Source of the DNA: the human T2T-CHM13v2.0 reference genome, Homo sapiens
NCBI RefSeq assembly: GCF_009914755.1
Contig: NC_060935.1
Direction: 5' to 3' (one strand)
Length of the DNA stretch: 64,000 bases
Numbering within the stretch: position 1 is the stretch's first letter; the number at the start of each line of letters is the position of its first letter. Both the position numbers and the translations under genes were made by a program. The notes under the pieces were generated by a model. It was given only the letters and a program-made list of their open reading frames with translations. It was not told the origin of the DNA and made no database searches. Of the stretch, positions 15,346 to 62,972 are shown in pieces.

Positions 15346-16782
15346 TCCACCCCTTTGTCAATATGATATGTATATATCTGTATCTCTTTGCACTGGATAT
15401 TGTATTGTAATTTATCATCTTCTCACCTTTGCTCCAATGTATAATGGGAATTCACATTTTCAATGTCCTCCTCTTCTTCTTCCTCTTCCTCTTTCTTTTC
15501 TTTTTTTAAGTATAATAATGATGATTTTAGAATATGACAGAATTGAGACCAAGCATATAACTCATATTAATAAATATTAATGTGCTTGACTTACTTAATA
15601 CAAAAATGATTTTAAGTTTAGTTCACAAAGTAAGGTCCGACATAGTTCTACTTTTTTATCTACACCGCTGCATTGCATTTAAAGTATGCTTGGCTTAGAT
15701 ATATTCAGGGATATTTCATTATATATTTATTTGTCCATGTCAATTGTCTTTATGTATATAATGTTTTATATAAGTCTAATTGAAACAAAATTTGGTAATG
15801 AGTCAAAACAAGAAATTCAAATTTATACAGAGTTTTATAAGAGTTGATATATGACTTTATAATATAGAGAATGGGAAAGCATTTGACTAAGGCCAATGCT
15901 TTTAACAAAGGGTTATGAAAAGAATTAGGAGAGATGCTAGAAACTAACAAGGGTTAACTAGCATTGGTAAATACATTACATGTACAGTAGCAATGTTAAT
16001 CCGTAAACAGAGACACACTGGCTCAAACATTTTTATTTGAATTGTGTTCTCCAGAGAAACTTCAAGTCAAGTTCATTTACCTGATAAATGTATCTTTACA
16101 ATGTATTTGTAAGGGTAGCTGTTTTAATGCAAACCACTTATGTATACAAACCATTCATATTTGTAATATAAGTTTTAATTATAGGTTCAGCTAAACTGAA
16201 AGGTCTATGCAGAATATAAAATAACACTAATGTGCTCACTATTTTTATGTTGATTGTTAAAATTATTTTACACCAGAGATTTGTTACATTTAACAGGACT
16301 GGAATTATAGTATATCAGTTAAGCATATTACCCAGTAATTAAACGGAACAGATAATTGAATTACTATGTTTATTGCTTTAGGGAAATACTTTGTGAAAAC
16401 CAACATAATATTCTACCTTGAAAGTTTAGCACCACACAGCATGCACCTTTGTGGTGCGTGGTCTGAAAATTATGTCTCCTATTACTTGTAGTTTTGCATG
16501 CCTCCATATTTTTCCACTATGACTCTCTTGTGTATTCCATTATGAGTTAAATTAACTAGTACACAGCTTCACAACCATTACTAAAATATTGAAAATCTAA
16601 AGCTCTACTCTAACTTTCAAATCCCTTTACTCCTCCTCATACTGACTCTTCTCTCAGCCACCAGTGACGTTGGTACAGAGGAAAGGAGGAGTCCTGAACA
16701 CCCAGACCTAGCTCAAATACTAGTCCTAGATGGACTGGCAAATCATAAACTCCCAGACTGAAACTTTTTCATTATTCATTCT

Positions 16783-23059: not shown

Positions 23060-23677
23060 AAAATTATACTAAGTGAAAGTTGTAAAGAATTGCATTCCAG
23101 AAAATTTGACAATTTTGATAAAATGCATAAATTACTTGGAAAGCAAAGGCTTTCCAGCTACATCCATGTTGCTGCAAAGAAACACGTCTACAAAAGATTT
23201 TGTTCTCTTTTATGGCTGCATAGTATTCCATGGTGTGTATGTATCACATTTTCTTTATCCAATCCACCATTGATGGCCACCTAAGTTGATTCCATGTCTT
23301 TGTTATTGTGAGTCACACAGTGATGAACATACAAGTGCATGTGTCTTTACAGTGAATGGCTTCTGCACAGCATAATAAACTGTCAACAGAGTATACAGAC
23401 AACCTACAGAATGGAAGAAAATACTAGCAAACTGCATCTGACGAAGGTTTAATATACAGAATCTATAAGGAACTTAAACAAATCAACAAGCAAAAATCAA
23501 ATACTCCCCTTAAAAAATGGGCAAAGGACATGAACAGATACTTCTCAAAAGAAAACATATAAGCGGCCAACAAACATAAGAAAAAATAGTCATCACTAAT
23601 CATCAGAGCAACGCAAATCAAAACCACAGTGAGATACCATCTCACACCAGACAAAATGGCTATTATGAAAAAGTCAA

Positions 23678-25644
<1,967 letters not shown>

Positions 25645-27184: not shown

Positions 27185-27415
27185 ACTGAGTAACACAGTA
27201 TGTTCTGGGGTCAAACACCCTGATTCAAAACCCACCTCCCCCACTAATTAACTACATGACTTTGGACAAATGAATGTCTTTAAGTTTCTTTAAATTTCTC
27301 CTCTGTAAAATGAGGTTAATTGGCAGCATCAAACTATAAGATGAATGGTGACTATGAAATCAATTAAAACAGGAAATCATGCTGGCACCTAGCAAACCTA
27401 ATGGATTGTAAACTA
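27185..27415 (+). mobile_element. MIR SINE
   Basis: TGACTTTGGACAAAT...TTTCTCCTCTGTAAAATGAGG...TGGCACCTAGCAAAC. Confidence 0.7.
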
Positions 27416-28859
27416 CTTATTTGAGAGTGAGGAGGTTACAATGCTGAAAAGAGGAGGTACAAAAAAAAAAAACAAAAAAAAACGCCCATTTAAAGAAACC
27501 ATATATTCAAGCGAACTTTTTTTATTGGCTATTTTTTTAAAGTATAGATGTCATCTAAAATATAACTGTAAACAAATAGAAAAAATATCAATAGAAAATA
27601 AAAAGTAGAGTAAAGATTTGAAAGGAGGAGTAACAGGAATTTGTGGGTGATGAAACAGAATGCAATCTTTATTGAGGAGGCCTGGCAGTATGAGATGGAT
27701 GGCCCAGGAAAATAATTGCTCTTGGAAGGATGGAAGTTGAATTTGGAAAAATAAACAGCTTTTTTTTTCTGAAACAGGAAAAAATTTAGGATAGCTGATG
27801 GCTCAGAGTGTTTTGAATATAATATAGACATATGGATAATTTGGGGGCAAATAACAGAGCTAAGCTTGCAAATAATCTAATTATTTTAGAAAAGTAGGCT
27901 GTGGGATAGTCAGCTGGGTGTGAAGAGTTGCTTTGGAGCAGCTCTTTGAATGAAAGCTTCTTCTATTTGCAGTGAAAGTCAATTTGTAGTTATTAGGAAT
28001 GTAATTCCAGGTAGCTTTGGGATCCTCATTATAAGCTTCCTTAAAACTGCTTTGATTGGATCGCACAGAAGTAACTGCTCTACAAAAAAAAATAGCCCTT
28101 CTATAAAAATCCATTCTCCGGAGGAACCAGCCCCATCTGTCAGCCAGTTGTAGCCTTAAACTTACCATCCACTTTTGTAGGAGTCTTCTAAGTTTTTTCT
28201 TTCTTTCTTTCTAATTTGATATTTCAAAATTATAGAGAAGTTATGGGAATGAAACAAGAAATTCCTATATACCTGCCTAGATTCACCAACGATTTACCTT
28301 TCGTCATTTGTTTTCCTTCTCTTTTTCTCTTTTATTTCACACAAAACATGTATATATAAGAATTTTAAAAACAATTTCAGAGTAAGAGGAAGTTGGAGAC
28401 ATAACGGCCCTTACATTTAGATGCAAATACTTTTGCATCTATTTCCTAAGGTTAAAGAGACACCCTTTATAAAACTAAAGAACAGTTATCAAAATTAGGA
28501 ATCTAAACATTCCATATGCAAATTTTATTGGTTCTCACAATAATGTGTTTATAGCTTGACTTTTCTTTCTATAAGATGTATGGTGACTATTACATCAGTT
28601 AAAACACGAAATCATGCTGGCACCTAGCAAACACAATGGCTCAAAAACTACTTATTTGGGAGTGAGGAGGTTACAGTGCTGAACACAGGAGGTATCAAAA
28701 AAAAAAAAAAAGGCCATTCAGAGAAACAATATATTCAAGTTATTGGCTATTATCTTTTTAAGTCTAGAAGTCATCTAAAATATAGATGTAAACAAAAAGT
28801 ATCAATAGAAAATAAAAATATAGAGTAAAGGTTCAAAAGGAGGAGTAACAGGAATTTGT
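27334..28859 (+). repeat. Diverged direct duplication: 27334-27644 and 28569-28859
   Basis: Both copies run CTATAAGATG.ATGGTGACTAT...GAAATCATGCTGGCACCTAGCAAAC...GGAGGAGTAACAGGAATTTGT. Confidence 0.95.
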
Positions 28860-34343: not shown

Positions 34344-36255
34344 ATAAGTTTCCTTTTAAATTTGGGTGCTAAATGAATTTACATTTAATGTAATGTAGAT
34401 AAGCATAATTTGAAATACCAGTATTTTAAATTGGTCCCATATAATCTTGGATTTGGCATTCTTTTTGTGTCTTCTTTTTCATTAACTGAATGTATTTGTA
34501 TTATTTTATTTTAATTTCTCTATTGTTTTTTCAAATATACCTCTTTGCATTATCTTTTAAAATAGTTGCTCTAAGGATTAAAATATACTTCCTTAATTTT
34601 TCATACTCTGCTAAGATGTTACATCGTATTGCCTCGTGTAAAGCTTGTAATGGATTAATTCTATTTACCTACTATCCTTTGTGTTAGTTCTGTCATTTAT
34701 ATTATTGAGTTCCTTCCGCAATTTTCCTGCTATTTCCATGCTACATTTTTTGATATAAAAATAGCTGTAGAATTGGGGAATAAAATATAAATAGCCAAAG
34801 GCAGATACCGACATTCATCCTCTGCTCTTAGTATTCATCTGATACCTGAAAAAAAGGGGAGAATCTCTTTCTCAGCATATAAGAAGGATAAATTTTGGTA
34901 GGATGTTTAAAAATATAAACAATACCAATGGAATAAATGTGTTAGAGTGAAAGGAACAAAGCATTTGGGAAGTTGCCTAACTCTAAATCTTGTAACTTTA
35001 ATTTGTAGAAATATTATATTGAGAATTAATAACAATAAACCTTCCTTGCTTTCTCTCTCCCTATCTTCTTTTCTTTCTTTCCTTTGTCCTTTCTTTTTTC
35101 CTCTTTCCTTTATTTACTTCCTTCTTTTCAGCCTTTCCTCTATTCACAAACATTCCTTGTACCGCTACTATATCTTAGGCACTGGGGACAGTCTTCAGCC
35201 TCACTTCTTTGTCTGTAAGGGGTTTGAATAAATATCTCATTATGTTCTTACAGAGATTAAATTAGAGGAGAAAATATGTGTGTCGTGAAAATTATAGTCC
35301 TTATATTTGGTGACTAATCAGTCAATGATATTGGTCATAATTATTTAGGAAATGTTAATTCTCTCCCACCCTCCATGCAGTAAATTATGTGGGGTTTACT
35401 TTGCTAACTAATTCTCTAGGCAATTGTTCTTTGCATTGTCATTCAAAGGTTCAGGAGTTTTTGCAATAGCCTGGAAATATCAAAGCTTTAAAACCAGTAA
35501 CCTCATTCCAATTTCAATCTTAAAATCCAAGTTGTTTAAAGGCACCAATATTATATTCCACAAATAACAGAGCTCCAGATGCTTGACTGCCAAGCAACTC
35601 TACTATTTTATTCATATTTATTCTTATGCATTCACTATATACTGTGTGTATCACTCATCCTAGTTTTGGTAATGATTTTCAGAAGGATTTCAATATCTCA
35701 AATTTGCAGAACATCGATATTTAAATGCATCTAGCTATATATACAGGCAATCAAGCATGACTAACATAATACTTGTATTAAACCTGCTGCCAGCAAAATT
35801 TTTACCAACCCAAAATTTCCTTACAGTTCTTCATATAATGAATTTTAGTCCCCACATGAAATCAGAAACATTTTATACTCATGTTTTCCAGAAGGCAGAC
35901 AAAAACAATCTGAAAGAAATTCCTAAATAGATTAACCTATGAAACCCAGGCATATTCCAGGCAGGAAGGCCTAGGCTTAAAATAAGACTAGTCAATATGC
36001 TTGCCTATTAGACCAAAAAAAGAAAAAAGAAAACAGCTGATTATTTGCAGTTTGCTTTTCCATATTCTCTATAGAAACCAACTGTTTATGTGGTAGGAAA
36101 AAAAAAATGAGATCAAAGAAATCACTCTCAAGATTTGATCCACTCAAATATGTCACCTTATTTTCTTTGCAGTAAAGGTAGTCGTTATTAATCAAACACA
36201 TTGTTATGTGGAAAACAGGTTTGATAATGTGAATTTTCCTAACTGCATCTTCATA

Positions 36256-43450: not shown

Positions 43451-45364
43451 AGGTTTCTACATAACTCATGGTTACTATTACACAAGAATGGATATTTCAA
43501 AAACCAGAATGAGGAAATGTGAATGGAGGACTTTTTAATATTCAAAAGATCCCAGAGAAACTATGAGACCTGCCCTATCCCTATAGAGTGGGTTTCAATG
43601 ACCAGTGGGAGAAAATAAAGTTAATTTCTACATCCTACAACTCCCACTATTTAATGTAAAGAGTACAGAATAATTTTCATGGGCTAAAAAGACTTTTGCA
43701 AGGACCTTGATACATTTTGGGGTTGCTGGACAGAAGCTAGAAAACTACGTCTGGGTCATTGGGAGGAAATGAAGTAGGCATTCTATTTGATGCCAGATTT
43801 TGGAGAAACTGCTGCCATACTTCATAAAAGGGCTGTATCCCTTTTACCATCTTTACTTTTGAAAAGTTTTGAAATAAAGGGAACAGAATTGAAATAAGGC
43901 TACATCATGATAATCTCAAAAGGACTCTCCATCATCACCACTCACCCCTCACTCCTGAAACAACTAATACAAGTTTGAAACAAAACAAAACAAAACAAAA
44001 CACTTTTTAATACATTGTGTAGCCAACTTGGAAATTTATTACCCCAAGAGGAGCTCCAATTTTAAAGTAGCAGTTAGAGATTTCTGTTGTTTGGGGTTTT
44101 GTTTTGTTTTTTTCCTTTATCTAGCCATAAGAGGTGATACAGGTAAGTAGAATATTCTGGGGACCAAAAAGTTGATGTCATGATTATAATGATCCTTCCA
44201 TATATACTTCTCTTGATACCATTTCCTGCATTATTAGATAAGAGATCCAAATAGGGCTGTATGATTGGTGTCCATATTAACACACATAATGAAGCAGAAC
44301 TTTCATAGAAGATACAGAGGACTTTAAATTATTTGAACAGCCACATATTCCCTTACTTATTCAACAGAAATATTGGGTATTTACTATGTGTCAAGCACCC
44401 TGCTAACCACTAGTAAAAATATAAAGTTTATATAAGCTTGGGATTTTGTTAAGACTAGCAATGTTGACATAAATTGAAATATAGAGAAATATAAAAGACA
44501 TATACTTGAAAACCAACTAGTGGATGAAATAAAATGATAAATGACACATAGTTACATAAATACTATACTTAAATATTTATATTATACATACAACTTCCCT
44601 TTCATTCTCACCAGAGTCAATCAGTAGATCTGAAGAAAATCCTACAGGGAGACCTAGCCTTCTCTGCCTTGAGGACACGTAGATCTTTCTCCAGAAAAAG
44701 ATGATCTCACATCTGCAATTGCGACCCTCTTCTGATGCCTCTTGGAAGTGCAGACATTCAACAATTACAATGCGGATTACGTAAACCTAAATGAAACCTT
44801 TTGAAAAACTTCTAAAATATATTTCCAGGAGACAATTAAGGGAAAGACATAATAATCTCTTCAGCCCTGCCTACAGCCAGAAAGATTTCCTTGAGTTTCT
44901 TTATAGCCCTTTCTTATGATGTTCATGGCGCTTCTCTTCTCTACATCTGAAGCGTTCTTTAATGTTTGCTCTTGTCTATTTCTGTTGCTTCAATGCCATT
45001 TCAAACTACCCCTTCATGTGAATTACCACAATAGCCTCTTATTAGCCTCCAACTACTAGTCCCCTCATACTGCTTTCATTAAGTCAAGTGAATAGTCTAA
45101 ACATTAGAAAAAATATCAAAAATGATAAGATAATTTCTGATCGTATCATTCCACTACTGAAATTGACTGGTCTATTTAATTAAACCTATCTTCGCAGGTG
45201 GTCTTCAAAGCTCTAGGATTAAGATATCAGCTCTATCTAATTCCCTACTACTTCGATAACAATATTCTCTGTTGCAACTACTAACAACTCAGTGTTTATT
45301 GAACATACTGAACTCTCCTTACCATTAATAGCCTTCTCTCCAATTAGAATTTCTTTAATCCTAC

Positions 45365-45697
45365 TGTGACAGATTGTATTTCCCAAAGATGGCCTCAACA
45401 TCCTATATGCTTTTCTGCAATGTGTTCTTGCAACTCCTCCACCGAGCAGTGGAGTCTATTTCATCACATCCTAGAACATAGACAATTTTTAACAGCTTTG
45501 ACAAATATAATATGACAAAAATGATTCTGTGCCAATTTCACGCATAGGATGTAATTGTCCCAGCAACATCTGCTTTCTGCCTTTTGGTACCCAGCTTCCA
45601 TGTAAGAAGCATAGAAATGTAATTACCCTGGGATTGTCATGTTGTGAAAAGGTGCTAGAAGATGCAGAGTTATGTGATGGGAGGTTGGGGTGGGGGA

Positions 45698-45756
<59 letters not shown>

Positions 45757-45975
45757 CCAAGGATAACCAAAGCACCAGACATATGAGTGAAGAAGTGAAG
45801 AAATCCTCTTAGAAATGGATCCTCCTGACCCTGCTGATGCCCCGTTGGATGGAGCAGAGACAATCACACAGTTGAGCCCTTTTTGAACTCCTGACCCATA
45901 AGATGACAGGAAACATAAGATGGCTGATTGAAACTACTAAGTTTTAGGGTAGTTTGCTGTGCAGTAATAGATAAT
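45365..45975 (+). mobile_element. MLT1H-like MaLR LTR containing (GA)n at 45697-45756
   Basis: TGTGACAGATTGTATTTCCCAAAGATGGCC...GGAGTCTATTTC...ACTAAGTTTTAGGGTAGTTTGCTGTGCAGTAATAGATAA. Confidence 0.85.
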
Positions 45976-46369
45976 TTTTAAAAATGCATTCAACTTTACT
46001 TTTCACCAAACGTGCTTTCACCAAAGGCATCAGTAACAACCTAAACTAGAAGTCAGATATCTTTCTGTTCCCCACTCACTAAACTTCTTTGCAGTCTCTT
46101 TCACCCTTCACATTCCTGTTTGTAAATATTATCCTGGAGCTGTTGGTACCTCTGGTCTATCAGTTTTCATAATCTGTTGCTGAGTCCCACCAACTCCTCA
46201 ACCTCTCAAGGTTTATCCTCAGAATTATCTTTTGATGATCCCCAATCTTGTCTTCATGCAACCATGGCAAAAGCCACATGAGATAGATCCATAAGATGAT
46301 GCAGTCAGAAAATATATTTCCACACTCAAAATCAGAAAGCTGCTTCTTCATTCCTATTTTTGAAATGGA

Positions 46370-46664
46370 TCTAGCACCTTTTCACAACATGACAATCCCA
46401 GGGTAATTACATTTCTATGCTTCTTACATGGAAGCTGGGTACCAAAAGGCAGAAAGCAGATGTTGCTGGGACAATTACATCCTATGCGTGAAATTGGCAC
46501 AGAATCATTTTTGTCATATTATATTTGTCAAAGCTGTTAAAAATTGTCTATGTTCTAGGATGTGATGAAATAGACTCCACTGCTCGGTGGAGGAGTTGCA
46601 AGAACACATTGCAGAAAAGCATATAGGATGTTGAGGCCATCTTTGGGAAATACAATCTGTCACA
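46370..46664 (-). mobile_element. Duplicated 5' half of the MLT1H LTR (part of the inverted copy)
   Basis: Identical to the reverse complement of 45365-45659. Confidence 0.85.
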
Positions 46665-47559
46665 GTAGGATTAAAGAAATTCTAACTGGAGAGAAGGCTA
46701 TTAATGGTAAGGAGAGTTCAGTATGTTCAATAAACACTGAGTTGTTAGTAGTTGCAACAGAGAATATTGTTATCGAAGTAGTAGGGAATTAGATAGAGCT
46801 GATATCTTAATCCTTGAATACTAACATTTGTCTTGAACCAATTTTCTCATTGGCATTCTTGTTTTTAATAAAACAGGTAATTTAAGTAACAAGTATAAAT
46901 ATTTTATCTCATTCCACTCAACCAAACTATTTTCATTTTAAATGAAAAAGTATAATCCATAAATATATATATTGTCCCTCTAGATTTGATCCTGGTGCAA
47001 AAAAGAAAAGGAAAGAAAAAAGTTACATACCATTTCTGTGTATCCTGATGTCCATTTTTAAATTTTAATAGATTATTGATATGATTTTGTTATCAGATTT
47101 TATCTCTAATCATACATTAACTTTTTATTTCATATTATATTTAAAACAGTCTCCATTAATTTTTTTTTCTTTTTACTTTCTGTAGGAATAATAGGTGTTC
47201 TGTTTTGTGCCTCTATATGTTCTCTCTCAACTGTTATAGCGTTTATTAGTGGGTGATTACAGCAGGCACTCTGGAGGCAAAATTGCCTGGTCTCGAATCT
47301 TTTCTTTACCCTTCAGTTGTTTGATGGCTTTGAACAAATTGTTTAATCTTTTGCTTATAGATCATAAACTCATAGACTACAGAAAATCAAGTTTATTCAT
47401 CCGATGAAAAATTGACATTCCATAAATATCTGTGAAATGAATGACTTTATTAACGCTTTAAAACCCTGCTTTAATGCCATTGCATTCATAAAACTTTCCC
47501 TCTTATCTCTAAAAACTACTCCTTTTATTTTCAAAAACTCATGGGACTTTGTTAATCTC

Positions 47560-47735
47560 TCTTGTATAATTATATTGTATCATATATTACAATTACATAC
47601 ATCTCTCTTATTCACATAATATAGTGAAAGCTCTTTGAGAACAGAAACTGTGACATCCTTTCATTCTTCACAGAATCTAGCATAGGGCCTTACATTAATT
47701 GCTGAGTGAATATTTATCACATAAATTAATGAATT
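47560..47735 (+). mobile_element. L2 3' end
   Basis: GAAAGCTCTTTGAGAACAGAAACTGTG...CTAGCATAGGGCCTTACA. Confidence 0.55.
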
Positions 47736-47768
47736 TTTGATTCATGCCTTTTTAAAAATTATTTCTTA

Positions 47769-47896
47769 TTTTTAAAAATAGAGAGGAGGTCTTGTTATGT
47801 TGCCCAGGCTTGTTTCAAACTCCTGGACTGAAGCAATCTGCCCACCTCAGCCTCCCAAAGTGTTGGGATTACAAGTGTGAGCCACCACGCCCAGCC
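47769..47896 (-). mobile_element. FLAM_C / Alu left monomer
   Basis: TATGTTGCCCAGGCT...CTCAGCCTCCCAAAGTGTTGGGATTACAAGTGTGAGCCACCACGCCCAGCC. Confidence 0.9.
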
Positions 47897-49267
47897 CCAT
47901 TTTCTTTATGTGAAATAATTGGTTCCAATCAACATATTCCAAGTTATTTATAGTTTTTATCTCAATATATTTATATTCTTCATAAAGCACTTTTTAAAAG
48001 TTATTTTATTGGTTACTTTTATTTTGTTTCCTTTTTATTTTATATTATCTTTATTCAGTATAGTATATTAACTATTTGAAATAAGAGCTATTTTTCTTAC
48101 ACATGTGCCTGCATTTAATATGAAATAATATCATCTCTCACTAGACCATGACTAATGAATAAAATCAATTTAATTCAAGGAAATAGCATAGATTGATTAT
48201 ACTTCTATAGTGCTAAATTCATATAGACTCCTAAGTAAATACCAAGTGTATACATGCATCCTTTAAGAATTTAATTAATTATATTAAACATAACATTCTA
48301 TGTTTTTATCTTAGCTTTGTTTTTAGCGGCAAATTTTTCTTCTAGTCAGAGTCCTACTTCTGCTACTTCACTCTTTGCTTGGATGCAGTTGCAGACTGTT
48401 GTCTGCAGCTGTTGCTCATTAACTAAAATCTGCAGTAGAACTTTTTCCTTTTTCCCAAGTGGTGGTGTTTTGATCATAGCATTCCCTAGAGCACAAAATG
48501 AATGCATATGTATGGACCATATAATGAATGGCCTTCTTGGTAATAAATAAAAAATTTAAGAGCTGTTTACATTTTTATAAATCCAGAAACAAACTAATTT
48601 TTGAAAAAAAAATGCACATTAATGTATTCATTTGCTCAGAATGCATCAATTTACCAAGTATATGTTAAGCGTATATTGAACTAGTGTAAGGTATAGAAGA
48701 ATACATCAAATATAGTGATAAACTATTTTAATTCTTATAAGACACACATTTACTTTCATAAGCTCACAAAGTAACCAACATGGTCCATCTGTTTATTTAT
48801 CTGTCAATCTATCTGGCTAGCTAGCTGATAACTAGGAATAAAACCAAACCAAACCAGGACTCAGCCTTTTTTTGCTGTACTCTATTCATGACCCAGTCTT
48901 TCCTCTCTGTATCTTCATCTCTAGCAGAGACAGGTTTATTTTCCTTAGTAGTCTCATTACTGCTTGTCATGTTGCTGAATCAGTAAAACCACATTAAAAG
49001 TTGTTTCATAACCTAAGAATCTTGAACAGGCTGGTCTGTTAGCCTGATCTGTCCTTTGCTGAACTTTCTTCTCTTTCAAGAAAGGCATTTAACAGAATTC
49101 CAGGCAAAAGTCCTACCAACATTCTTATCAATGATCTTATGCAATAGCAGGGAAACAATTAATGTAGCAGTCTATTTCATTCAGTTCTTAATTATCACTG
49201 CAGCCATGGTGATGATCCTTGGTCAAGTCCTCAAAACAAAACTATTGGAATGTTCACATAGTTACTA

Positions 49268-61264: not shown

Positions 61265-62972
61265 TTATTTTTTCAACTTTTAGATCCAAGGGGTACATGT
61301 GTGGGTTTGTTACTTGGGTATATTGCATGATGCTGAGGTTTGGAGTATGAATGATCCCCACATCGATGTACTGAGCATAGTACCCAATAGTTTGGTAAGC
61401 CTTGCCGACTCCTCTAGTAGGCTCTAGTATCTATTGTTGCCATCTTTATGTCCACAAGTACCTGAGTTTAGCTTCAACTTGTAAGTGAGAACATGCAGTA
61501 TCTAGTTTTCTGTTCCTGCATTAATTCGCTTAAGATAGTGGCTTCCAGCTGCATCGGTGTTGCTGCAAAGGACATGATTTTGTTAATTTTTATGGCTGCA
61601 TGGTATGCCATGGTGTTTACGTTCTACATGTTCATTATTGAATCCACCCTTGATGGCACCTAGGTTGATTCCTCATCTTTGCTATTGTGAATAGTCCTAT
61701 GATAAACATACAAATGCATGTGTCTTTTTGGCAGACTGGTTTGTTTTCTTTTGGATATATAACCAGTAATGAGAAGGCTGAGTCAAACGGCTGTTCTAAG
61801 TTCTTTGAGAAATTTCCAAATTGCTTTCCACAGTGGCTGAATTAATTTACATTCCTACCAACAGTGTACAAATGTTCCCTTTTTTCTGTAGCCTTGCCAG
61901 AATCTGTTGTTTTGACTTTAATAATAGCCATTCTGACTGTTATGCAATAATATCTCATTATGGCTTTAATTGGCATTTCTCTGATGATTAGGGATAATAA
62001 GTGTTCTTTCATGTTTGTTGGTCATTTGTATGTCTTCTTTTGAGATGTGTCCGTTCATGTCTTTTGATCATTTTTTAAAGCGGTTATGTGTTTTTTTTTC
62101 TTATTGAATTTTTTAAGTTCCTTATAAATTCTGGATATTAGATCTTTTTTAGATGCATAGTTTGTGAATATTTTCTCCCATTCTGTAGGTTGTCTGTTTA
62201 CTTTATTGATAGTTTTTTTTTTTTTTTTTCCTGTGCAGAAGCTCTTTAGTTTAACTAAGTCCCACTTGTCAATTGTTTATTGTTGTTGCAATTGTATTTG
62301 AGGACTTGGTCATAAATTCTTTTCCAAGGTCCATGTCCTGAATGGTGTTTCCTAGGTTTTCTTCTAGAATTCTTATAGTTTGAAATCTTATATTTAAATC
62401 TTTAATCCATCTTGAGTTAATTTTTGTATGTGGTGAAAGGTAGGGGCCCAGTTTTGTTCTTCTACATGTGACTACTGAGCTATCCCAGCACCATTTATTG
62501 AATAAGGAATGCTTTCTCCATTGCTTATTTTTGTCAACTTTATTGAAGTCTAGGTGGCTGTAGGTATATGGCTTTATTTTCAGGCTTTCTGTTTTGTTCC
62601 ACTGATCTATATGTCTGTTTTTACACGAGTACCATGCTGTTTTGGTTACTGTAGCCTTATAGCATAAAATTGGATAATGTGAGTCTTCTAGCTTTGTTAT
62701 TTTTGCTTAGAATTATTTTGGCTGTTCAGGTTCTTTTTTGGCTCCATAAAAATTTTAGAATAGTTTTTTTTTCAATTCTGTGAAAAATGCCATTGGTAGA
62801 TTGATAGGAATAGTGTTGAATCTGTAGATTGCTTTGGGCAGTATGACCAATTTAATGACACTGATTCTTCCAATTGATAAGCATGGAGTGTTTGTCCATG
62901 TGTTTGTGTCTTCTGTGGTTTATTTTAGCAGTGTTTTGTAGTTCTGCTTGTAGAGATCTTTTACCCTTTTGG
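61265..62972 (-). mobile_element. L1PA15/16-like, 5'-truncated (~1.7 kb)
   Basis: TTTAGATCCAAGGGGTACATGTG...; TSD CACAGAACATATT (61254) / CAGAGAACATACT (62973). Confidence 0.9.

What the first reader, a model, noticed from the sequence alone, without database searches (positions are those of the whole stretch)
45215..46814. Near-perfect 445-bp inverted duplication with a 710-bp spacer
Seen: 46370-46814 is the reverse complement of 45215-45659 with one mismatch, although the copied DNA is ancient L2-like and MLT1H sequence. The left arm is the original because the LTR continues through its inner edge. The right arm truncates the LTR and has no TSD, poly(A) or transposon ends. Established: replication template switching (FoSTeS/MMBIR-type) produces such local inverted copies, often with a deletion at the insertion point. 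Inference: either a very recent, possibly polymorphic event or arms homogenised by gene conversion. It could mediate recurrent inversion of the spacer (LTR 3' half), form a stem-loop, or yield 445 bp of near-perfect dsRNA.
Basis: partly seen in the sequence, partly recalled or inferred. Interest (0 to 1): 0.8.

Follow-up and report, generated by a model that had tools for sequence, protein, structure and literature searches.

The report
Young local inverted duplication, chr11
A 445-base stretch of old, non-coding human DNA was copied once, recently, in reverse orientation about 700 bases downstream of itself; it is a real but ordinary example of a known class of small human structural variant, with no sign of function.

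Summary
Window 46370-46814 is the reverse complement of 45215-45659 with one mismatch (45343/46686). The spacer is 710 bp and homology stops abruptly at all four edges. T2T-CHM13 holds only these two copies.

An old LTR-like interspersed repeat (about 45365-45980) runs unbroken through the inner edge of the left arm. The right arm carries its truncated 5' part plus 150 bp of the LTR's unique upstream flank. So this is a segmental copy, the left-arm/spacer junction is native, and the spacer/right-arm junction is new.

One difference in 445 bp gives about 2.2 Myr (95% 0.06-12.5) if there was no gene conversion.

The structure fits the "inverted duplication" class, the commonest non-mobile-element inversion-type variant in 1,019 long-read human genomes (277 events, median 284 bp, mostly 1-15 bp microhomology; PMC12350158).

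One new detail is that the copied segment ends 17 nt before a 91-bp purine/(AG)n tract, one of three such tracts in 64 kb. This suggests copying stopped at a replication barrier.

Age, polymorphism, the empty site and transcription could not be tested, because no other human or ape genome was available. There is no evidence of function, so interest is low.

The parts
45215..45659 (+). Left arm, the source copy. It holds 150 bp of unique sequence (45215-45364) plus the 5' part of an old LTR-like repeat (45365-45659).
   Evidence: pairing. (the old repeat runs through 45659 into the spacer).
45660..46369 (.). The 710-bp spacer. It holds the purine tract, the 3' part of the old LTR-like repeat (to about 45980), then single-copy sequence (45981-46369).
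   Evidence: In one search, all 17 non-self matches lie in 45757-45980 and none lies beyond.
46370..46814 (-). Right arm, the inverted copy. The LTR-like part is cut off at 46370, and the arm is flanked by single-copy DNA on both sides.
   Evidence: (flanks unique).
45365..45980 (+). Old interspersed LTR-like repeat, starting TGTGACAG. The family name was not tested. It is interrupted or expanded by a purine/(AG)n tract.
   Evidence: collinear matches in L010, L041, L028, L029, L030, L031. (alignments 418/719 and 406/695, E 4e-22 and 1e-25).
45676..45766 (+). A 91-bp purine-rich tract made of G-runs then (AG)29.5 at 45698-45756. It begins 17 nt beyond the end of the copied segment and is a possible replication barrier.
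   Evidence: tandem repeat. (one of three such tracts in the window; 0.375% of positions lie within 40 bp of one).
45343..45343 (.). The only internal difference between the arms: A here, and C at 46686 where T would pair.
45212..45213 (.). 'TC', which also pairs with 46816-46817. It is either 2-nt junction microhomology or chance.
   Evidence: not significant.
44615..45493 (+). Terminal exon of the predicted lncRNA LOC105369466. Its last 279 nt lie in the left arm.
   Evidence: The hub's annotation table; no AATAAA/ATTAAA on the + strand between 45179 and 46670.
46670..46734 (+). ATTAAA (46670) and AATAAA (46729) on the + strand, brought in by the inverted copy.

Best explanation
This is a single, evolutionarily recent, local inverted duplication with no apparent function, made by a replication or repair template switch.

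Proposed steps:
1. A growing 3' end that was copying the + strand leftward left its template near 46815-46818.
2. It re-primed with little or no microhomology on the opposite strand about 1.6 kb ahead, at 45212-45215.
3. It copied 445 nt back toward its starting point.
4. It stopped at 45659, just short of a 91-bp purine/(AG)n tract.
5. It returned to the original template at 46369.

The same product would arise if a resected double-strand-break end at 46369/46815 did the copying and was then end-joined.

Shown: the two copies; their near-identity; the sharp edges; the native left-arm/spacer junction; the new spacer/right-arm junction; the absence of transposition hallmarks; the purine tract next to the end of the source.

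Inferred: the order of the switches, the role of the purine tract, the age (most likely after the human-chimpanzee split), and neutrality.
For: - Arms are 445 bp with 1 mismatch, and homology is lost abruptly at all four edges.
- The assembly holds only two copies.
- The arm combines 150 bp of unique flank with a truncated old LTR-like repeat, so it is a segmental copy and not two transposon insertions.
- The old repeat is continuous across 45659 but cut at 46370.
- The edges of the right arm carry no poly(A), terminal repeats or target-site duplication.
- One difference in 445 bp gives 2.2 Myr (95% 0.06-12.5) at 0.5e-9 per site per year. The probability of an age under 6.5 Myr is 0.78 with a flat prior and no conversion.
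- The source ends 17 nt before one of only three purine/pyrimidine tracts in 64 kb. Homopurine mirror repeats stall polymerases and forks (review PMC11667243, passages read).
- The class is established. Among 733 non-mobile-element inversion-type variants in 1,019 humans, inverted duplications are the commonest (277 events, median 284 bp). They are defined by the inserted sequence re-aligning within 2 kb of the breakpoint. Most have 1-15 bp microhomology, and the authors read them as replicative (PMC12350158, passages and section 'Inversions').
Against: - No empty-site allele was seen, so insertion polarity at the outer junctions, any deletion, and microhomology are not demonstrated.
- The outer edge of the left arm could not be shown to be native.
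- Close inverted repeats can be homogenised by gene conversion, so the age estimate is only a lower bound on possible ages.
- The proximity to the purine tract was noticed after the fact. The chance is about 0.4% per breakpoint and about 1.5% for any of four.
- GC skew (X -0.21, left arm -0.21, spacer end -0.32, right arm +0.20, right flank -0.08) only weakly supports the left arm and spacer being in native orientation, because local skew is variable (sd 0.13).
Confidence: 0.7

Rival explanations
1. The duplication is old, shared with other apes or monkeys, and its arms are kept nearly identical by repeated gene conversion between them, as in sex-chromosome palindromes.
For: The arms are 99.8% identical and only 710 bp apart, a geometry that permits intrachromosomal conversion. 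Arm-to-arm conversion that keeps identity above 99% is documented for large palindromes (abstracts of PMC8981503 and PMC3723533 seen in the listing).
Against: The arms are short (445 bp) compared with documented conversion-maintained palindromes. Identity is uniform up to sharp edges, with no decayed margin. Polymorphic events of the same size and geometry are common in living humans, which shows that the class is usually young. There was no direct test here.
Confidence: 0.17
2. This is an inversion with a staggered break. The ancestor was flank-(spacer inverted)-(right arm)-flank. A 1.15-kb segment inverted, and fill-in of a 445-nt staggered break left one copy at each end. The right arm would then be native at its outer edge, and the outer edge of the left arm would be the new junction.
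For: This gives the same present-day structure. The native arm-spacer junction is compatible with it. Neither outer junction could be shown to be native. The model itself is recalled from work on Drosophila inversions and comes from no call.
Against: A 445-nt stagger is long. The human catalogue read here lists no such class among its complex inversions, whereas insertion-type inverted duplications number 277. GC skew of the left arm and spacer end matches the left flank, which is weak evidence.
Confidence: 0.07
3. This is an assembly artefact of T2T-CHM13, such as a fold-back chimera.
For: No reads could be inspected, and perfect fold-backs are a known artefact of single reads (recalled).
Against: The structure is not a fold-back. 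The right arm is followed by single-copy DNA that continues the chromosome, and the 710-bp spacer is not duplicated. The arms differ at one base. The whole structure is 1.6 kb, well within single long reads.
Confidence: 0.03
4. These are two independent insertions of the same transposable element in opposite orientation.
For: Part of each arm is an old interspersed repeat.
Against: The arms include 150 bp of non-repeat flank, share the same truncation-free 5' boundary and are 99.8% identical, while other family copies are 58-92% identical. The LTR-like part of the right arm is cut mid-element at 46370.
Confidence: 0.01

Closest known systems
Polymorphic 'inverted duplications' in human long-read callsets (Schloissnig et al. 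2025, PMC12350158)
   Same: An inserted segment that is an inverted copy of sequence within 2 kb, hundreds of bp long (median 284 bp there, 445 bp here), with no mobile-element hallmarks. The spacer is unchanged and junctions are blunt or have short microhomology.
   Different: Here it is seen only as a fixed feature of one assembly, so presence/absence in other genomes is unknown. It is somewhat longer than the median. This locus was not found in the tables that could be searched, but those tables do not list inverted duplications.
FoSTeS / MMBIR template-switch rearrangements (Hastings et al. 2009, PMC2621351; listing only)
   Same: An inverted templated copy from a nearby site, sharp junctions, no long homology needed, and plausible stalling at a non-B DNA motif.
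   Different: The classical cases are kb-to-Mb pathogenic CNVs with several switches. This is one 445-bp copy with two switches. Microhomology was not demonstrable.
Short-range template switches in great apes (Walker et al. 2021, PMC7954356; passages read)
   Same: These create nearby perfect inverted repeats able to form hairpins.
   Different: Those events are modelled over tens of bases and replace sequence. This one is 445 bp with a 710-bp spacer.
Conversion-maintained palindromes of the X and Y chromosomes
   Same: Inverted arms more than 99% identical around a unique spacer.
   Different: Those have arms of many kb, carry genes and are conserved among primates. This one has 445-bp arms of junk DNA in a gene desert, and its conservation is unknown.
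Alu inverted-repeat fragile motifs (Lobachev laboratory; PMC10164571, abstract and introduction read)
   Same: Inverted repeats a few hundred bp long that can fold back in single-stranded DNA.
   Different: In double-stranded DNA, widening the spacer from 12 to 20 bp already cut recombination about 40-fold. With a 710-bp spacer, cruciform-driven fragility is not expected. Only long single-stranded regions would let the arms pair.

Membership tests
Local inverted duplication (insertion-type, replicative origin) | The extra segment is an inverted copy of sequence within about 2 kb of its insertion point | tested here: met
   The source lies 710 bp (inner edges) to 1.6 kb (outer edges) away, and 444 of 445 bases pair.
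Local inverted duplication (insertion-type, replicative origin) | No retrotransposition or transposition hallmarks (poly(A), target-site duplication, element termini at the arm ends) | tested here: met
   The arm ends lie inside unique sequence and mid-LTR. There is no poly(A) and no flanking direct repeat at the junctions. A 'TTGAA' occurs at 46360-64 and 46814-18, but it is offset from the left junction.
Local inverted duplication (insertion-type, replicative origin) | Blunt or 1-15 bp microhomology junctions | tested here: inconclusive
   There is no long homology at either junction and a possible 2-nt 'TC'. True microhomology needs the empty site, which was not available.
Local inverted duplication (insertion-type, replicative origin) | An allele or outgroup without the extra copy and with the spacer in the same orientation | not testable with these tools
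   No other human or primate genome is held. A scan of prokaryote assemblies for stray human sequence found 0 matches. The supplements that could be searched had no row for this place, and two others could not be read.
Pair of independent transposable-element insertions | The arms coincide with element boundaries and differ about as much as other family members | tested here: not met
   The arm is 150 bp of unique flank plus a truncated element. The arms are 99.8% identical against 58-92% for other copies.
Segmental duplication (conventional definition, recalled: at least 1 kb and at least 90% identity) | Length of at least 1 kb | tested here: not met
   445-448 bp.
Conversion-maintained palindrome | Both arms present in orthologous position in distant primates, with within-species identity above between-species identity | not testable with these tools
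   No primate genomes are held.
   No repeat library was available. Many dispersed copies exist, at 58-92% identity over 38 bp to about 700 aligned columns, with a shared start at TGTGACAG. This shows an old interspersed repeat about 600 bp long. The subfamily name is untested.
Known structured RNA or miRNA hairpin locus | Match to an Rfam family | tested here: not met
   None of the 3 matches at E<=1 in 44000-48000 lies in the arms or the spacer.

The most novel reading that the evidence does not exclude
The copy is human-specific and sits just downstream of the terminal exon of lncRNA LOC105369466. The annotated 3' end of that exon (45493) has no poly(A) signal. The first + strand signals after it (ATTAAA at 46670, AATAAA at 46729) were created by the inverted copy itself. 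Read-through transcripts ending there would contain about 300-360 bp of essentially perfect intramolecular double-stranded RNA. That is far more perfect than inverted Alu pairs, and it would be a new, lineage-specific substrate for ADAR editing, MDA5/PKR sensing or Dicer. The same arms might also flip the 710-bp spacer by recombination in some haplotypes.
Probability: 0.06. Interest if true: 0.55.

Novelty: new member of a known kind. Interest (0 to 1): 0.22.

Why it matters
On its own it matters little. It lies in a gene desert, is made of old repeat and unique non-coding DNA, and shows no sign of function.

It is a clean, fully resolved example of a small inverted duplication whose source segment ends next to a homopurine (AG)n tract. 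If the empty site were recovered from apes or other humans, it would give one exact data point on where template switches start and stop relative to a non-B DNA motif.

If it is transcribed through, it would be an unusually perfect endogenous hairpin RNA.

For read mapping, the arms are a 445-bp two-copy region with opposite strands, so short reads map ambiguously there.

Tried and rejected
- Naming the old repeats was not possible because no repeat library is held. Own-genome searches found relatives only for 45365-45980. They found none for 45215-45364, for 45981-46369 or for the right flank, apart from one weak 67-bp hit. 'L2-like' is therefore unconfirmed.
- I tried to show which outer junction is native. 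Genome searches across each returned only the locus itself (2 of 2 matches each). A relaxed BLAST against the rest of the window, with 44601-47300 masked, gave only hits with E>=0.004, and none crossed a junction.
- A visually suggestive gapped match beyond the outer edge (GT.TTCA after a 7-nt gap) was rejected as not significant.
- I looked for other haplotypes or species:
  - A scan of 32 million prokaryote contigs for a 25-nt unique spacer word, in case of stray human DNA, gave 0 matches.
  - Supplement 2 of PMC12350158 had 0 occurrences of the coordinates. Its tables do not list inverted duplications.
  - The supplement of the HGSVC3 preprint (PMC11451754) had no chr11 row at 104.700-104.703 Mb in its CHM13 inversion table, only a chrX row. 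The file is cut as stored.
  - The supplements of PMC10028934 and PMC12058530 could not be read.
- A paper search for LOC105369466 gave 0 papers. I did not search for the locus under other names or coordinates, so I do not claim it is unpublished.
- Rfam found nothing in the arms or spacer.
- No protein, structure or complex tools were used, because the region is non-coding.
Full report
**Observation.** The inverted repeat is real and lies at the stated coordinates. The repeat finder on 44000-48000 gives one pair, 45212-45659 / 46370-46817, with 710 nt between the arms and no direct repeats. A base-by-base check shows that 45215-45659 pairs with 46814-46370 except at 45343 (A) / 46686 (C). That difference is an A/G transition and is not at a CpG. 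Two more bases (45212-13) pair after a mismatch at 45214. Beyond the arms, 29 of 40 outer and 27 of 39 inner positions are mismatched, which is the random level. Gapped extension from either edge is no better than for random pairs of window segments: the outer score of 1 is reached by 43% of 5000 random pairs, and the inner score is 0. In the whole 64-kb window this is the only high-identity repeat. The other listed inverted pairs are at most 161 nt and at most 93% complementary, of Alu/L1 type.

**Copy number.** A search of the whole assembly with the arm returns 10 matches. Two are at 100% identity (the two arms). Eight are at 72-92% identity over 38-108 bp and fall in arm positions 149-265. 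The arm is therefore a two-copy sequence that contains part of an old dispersed repeat.

**What was copied, and which copy is native.** Searches with the spacer found 17 non-self matches, all within 45757-45980. A relaxed BLAST compared window 44501-46369 with 25 of the fetched loci: the 8 repeat copies and the 17.
- Two loci align in a single piece across the inner edge of the left arm: L010 over 45365-46002 and L041 over 45308-45974.
- Two more (L028, L029) have collinear pieces on both sides.
- L030 and L031 cover from the edge region to about 45975.

The printed alignments (418/719 and 406/695 identities, E 4e-22 and 1e-25) show an element that starts at TGTGACAG (45365) and ends near 45980. 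It has a purine-rich middle in both this copy and L010.

The old element, about 600 bp and LTR-like, is therefore continuous across 45659. In the right arm the same element is cut off at 46370 and abuts unrelated single-copy sequence. The first 150 bp of the arm (45215-45364) are not part of that element and have no relatives elsewhere. So the arms cannot be two independent transposon insertions. The names MLT1H and L2 could not be tested.

**What stays open about polarity.** The present structure (flank X, arm B, spacer C, inverted arm B', flank Y) can arise in two ways. One is insertion of B' between C and Y. The other is inversion of a B-C segment whose 445-nt staggered break was filled in on both sides, from an ancestor X-C'-B'-Y. 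The two differ in which outer junction is native. Genome searches across each outer junction returned only the locus itself. A relaxed search of the rest of the window found nothing that crosses either junction. GC skew is -0.21 in X, -0.21 in B, -0.32 in the unique part of C, +0.20 in B' and -0.08 in Y. This makes B' the odd block, but local skew varies (sd 0.13), so it is weak support. I favour insertion mainly because insertion-type inverted duplications are a large documented class in humans (see "Comparison with what is known").

**Age.** One difference in 445 bp corresponds to 2.2 Myr (95% 0.06-12.5) at 0.5e-9 per site per year, or 1.1 Myr (0.03-6.3) at 1e-9. With a flat prior and no conversion, the probability of an age under 6.5 Myr is 0.78 or 0.98 respectively. 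Copies of the old repeat elsewhere differ by 10-40%, so the duplication is far younger than the DNA it copied. Gene conversion between arms 710 bp apart could hide a greater age. The uniform identity and sharp edges do not demand it, and nothing here excludes it.

**Mechanism.** There is no poly(A), no element terminus and no target-site duplication at the arm ends. The simplest route is two template switches, as follows.
1. A 3' end copying the + strand leftward leaves near 46815-46818.
2. It primes on the opposite strand at 45212-45215. At most two nucleotides (TC) of possible microhomology are visible.
3. It copies rightward for 445 nt and leaves at 45659.
4. It resumes at 46369.

A resected break end doing the same copying before end-joining gives the same product.

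The tract consists of G-runs followed by (AG)29.5 at 45698-45756. Only three such tracts exist in the 64 kb, and only 0.375% of positions lie within 40 bp of one. Homopurine mirror repeats stall DNA polymerases and replication forks in vitro and in cells (review PMC11667243, passages read). I therefore propose that copying stopped because the polymerase met this barrier. This was noticed after the fact, and the chance for any of four breakpoints is about 1.5%, so it is an inference and not a result.

**Structure-forming potential.**
- As a single strand, 45215-46814 folds with 444 of 445 arm positions paired in register. The energy is -1003 kcal/mol with RNA parameters and -623 with DNA parameters, against -69 for the spacer alone.
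- In double-stranded DNA a 710-bp spacer should prevent cruciform extrusion. In yeast, widening an Alu inverted-repeat spacer from 12 to 20 bp already reduced recombination about 40-fold, and only long single-stranded regions let distant arms interact (PMC10164571, abstract and introduction).
- No Rfam family matches the arms or spacer.

**Transcription.**
- The hub's annotation places the last exon of the predicted lncRNA LOC105369466 at 44615-45493, so its final 279 nt are in the left arm.
- There is no AATAAA or ATTAAA on the + strand between 45179 and 46670.
- The next signals (46670, 46729) lie in the right arm and exist only because the copy is inverted.
- Read-through would therefore give a long perfect hairpin RNA.
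- No expression data were available, and no paper mentions the gene.

**Comparison with what is known.** In 1,019 long-read human genomes, inverted duplications were the commonest class among 733 non-mobile-element inversion-type variants (277 events, median 284 bp; 311 before filtering). They were defined by the inserted sequence re-aligning within 2 kb of the breakpoint. They rarely had breakpoint homology (8.8%) and mostly had 1-15 bp microhomology, and the authors read this as a replicative origin (PMC12350158). The present structure meets every feature of that class that could be tested here. Short-range template switching in apes is likewise known to create nearby perfect inverted repeats, at a smaller scale (PMC7954356). 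The structure is below the usual 1-kb limit for segmental duplications (recalled). It is unlike the large gene-bearing palindromes of the sex chromosomes.

**Search for this locus in catalogues.**
- The readable tables of PMC12350158 do not list inverted duplications and contain no matching coordinate.
- The CHM13-based inversion table of the HGSVC3 preprint has no row at chr11:104.700-104.703 Mb. The stored file is cut, and small inversions may escape that method.
- Two other supplements were unreadable.
- A scan of prokaryote assemblies for stray human sequence found nothing.

So presence or absence in other humans and apes remains untested. Supplements I could not see may hold the answer.

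**Verdict.** This is a real, recent, local inverted duplication and most likely a neutral template-switch insertion. It is a new member of a known kind. The most useful new detail is the end of the copied segment next to the (AG)n tract. Interest is low unless ape and pangenome comparison or RNA data show lineage specificity together with a transcribed hairpin.

Noticed in passing
window 27334-27610 and 28569-28830: Two collinear direct repeats (143 nt at 87% and 76 nt at 78%), spaced about 1,220-1,235 bp apart. This looks like an older local direct duplication.
   Followed up: no
window 23347-23595 and 24371-24621: An inverted pair in two collinear pieces (161 nt at 83% and 87 nt at 76%), 775-1,101 nt apart, inside a masked repeat block. 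It may be an internally inverted or paired L1 fragment. The same block matches 61466-62582 in direct orientation at 71-80%.
   Followed up: no
window 15455-15508 and 35039-35141: The only other purine/pyrimidine tracts in the window with at least 92% of one class over 50 bp.
   Followed up: no
window 45493: The annotated 3' end of the predicted lncRNA LOC105369466 has no canonical poly(A) hexamer upstream. The nearest on the + strand is ATTAAA at 45179. The model end may therefore not be a true transcript end.
   Followed up: partly
window 44969-45080, minus strand: A weak sub-threshold Rfam match to TCL6_1 (22.1 bits against a gathering score of 60, E 0.12), probably chance. The Metazoa_SRP match at 47779-47895 is the Alu masked at 47719-47903.
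   Followed up: no
L010 (G000:C3:73249657-73252764), about 1140-1260: Another copy of the same old LTR-like repeat also carries a purine-rich GACA/GATA microsatellite at the position of the (AG)n tract here. This part of the element seems prone to microsatellite growth.
   Followed up: no
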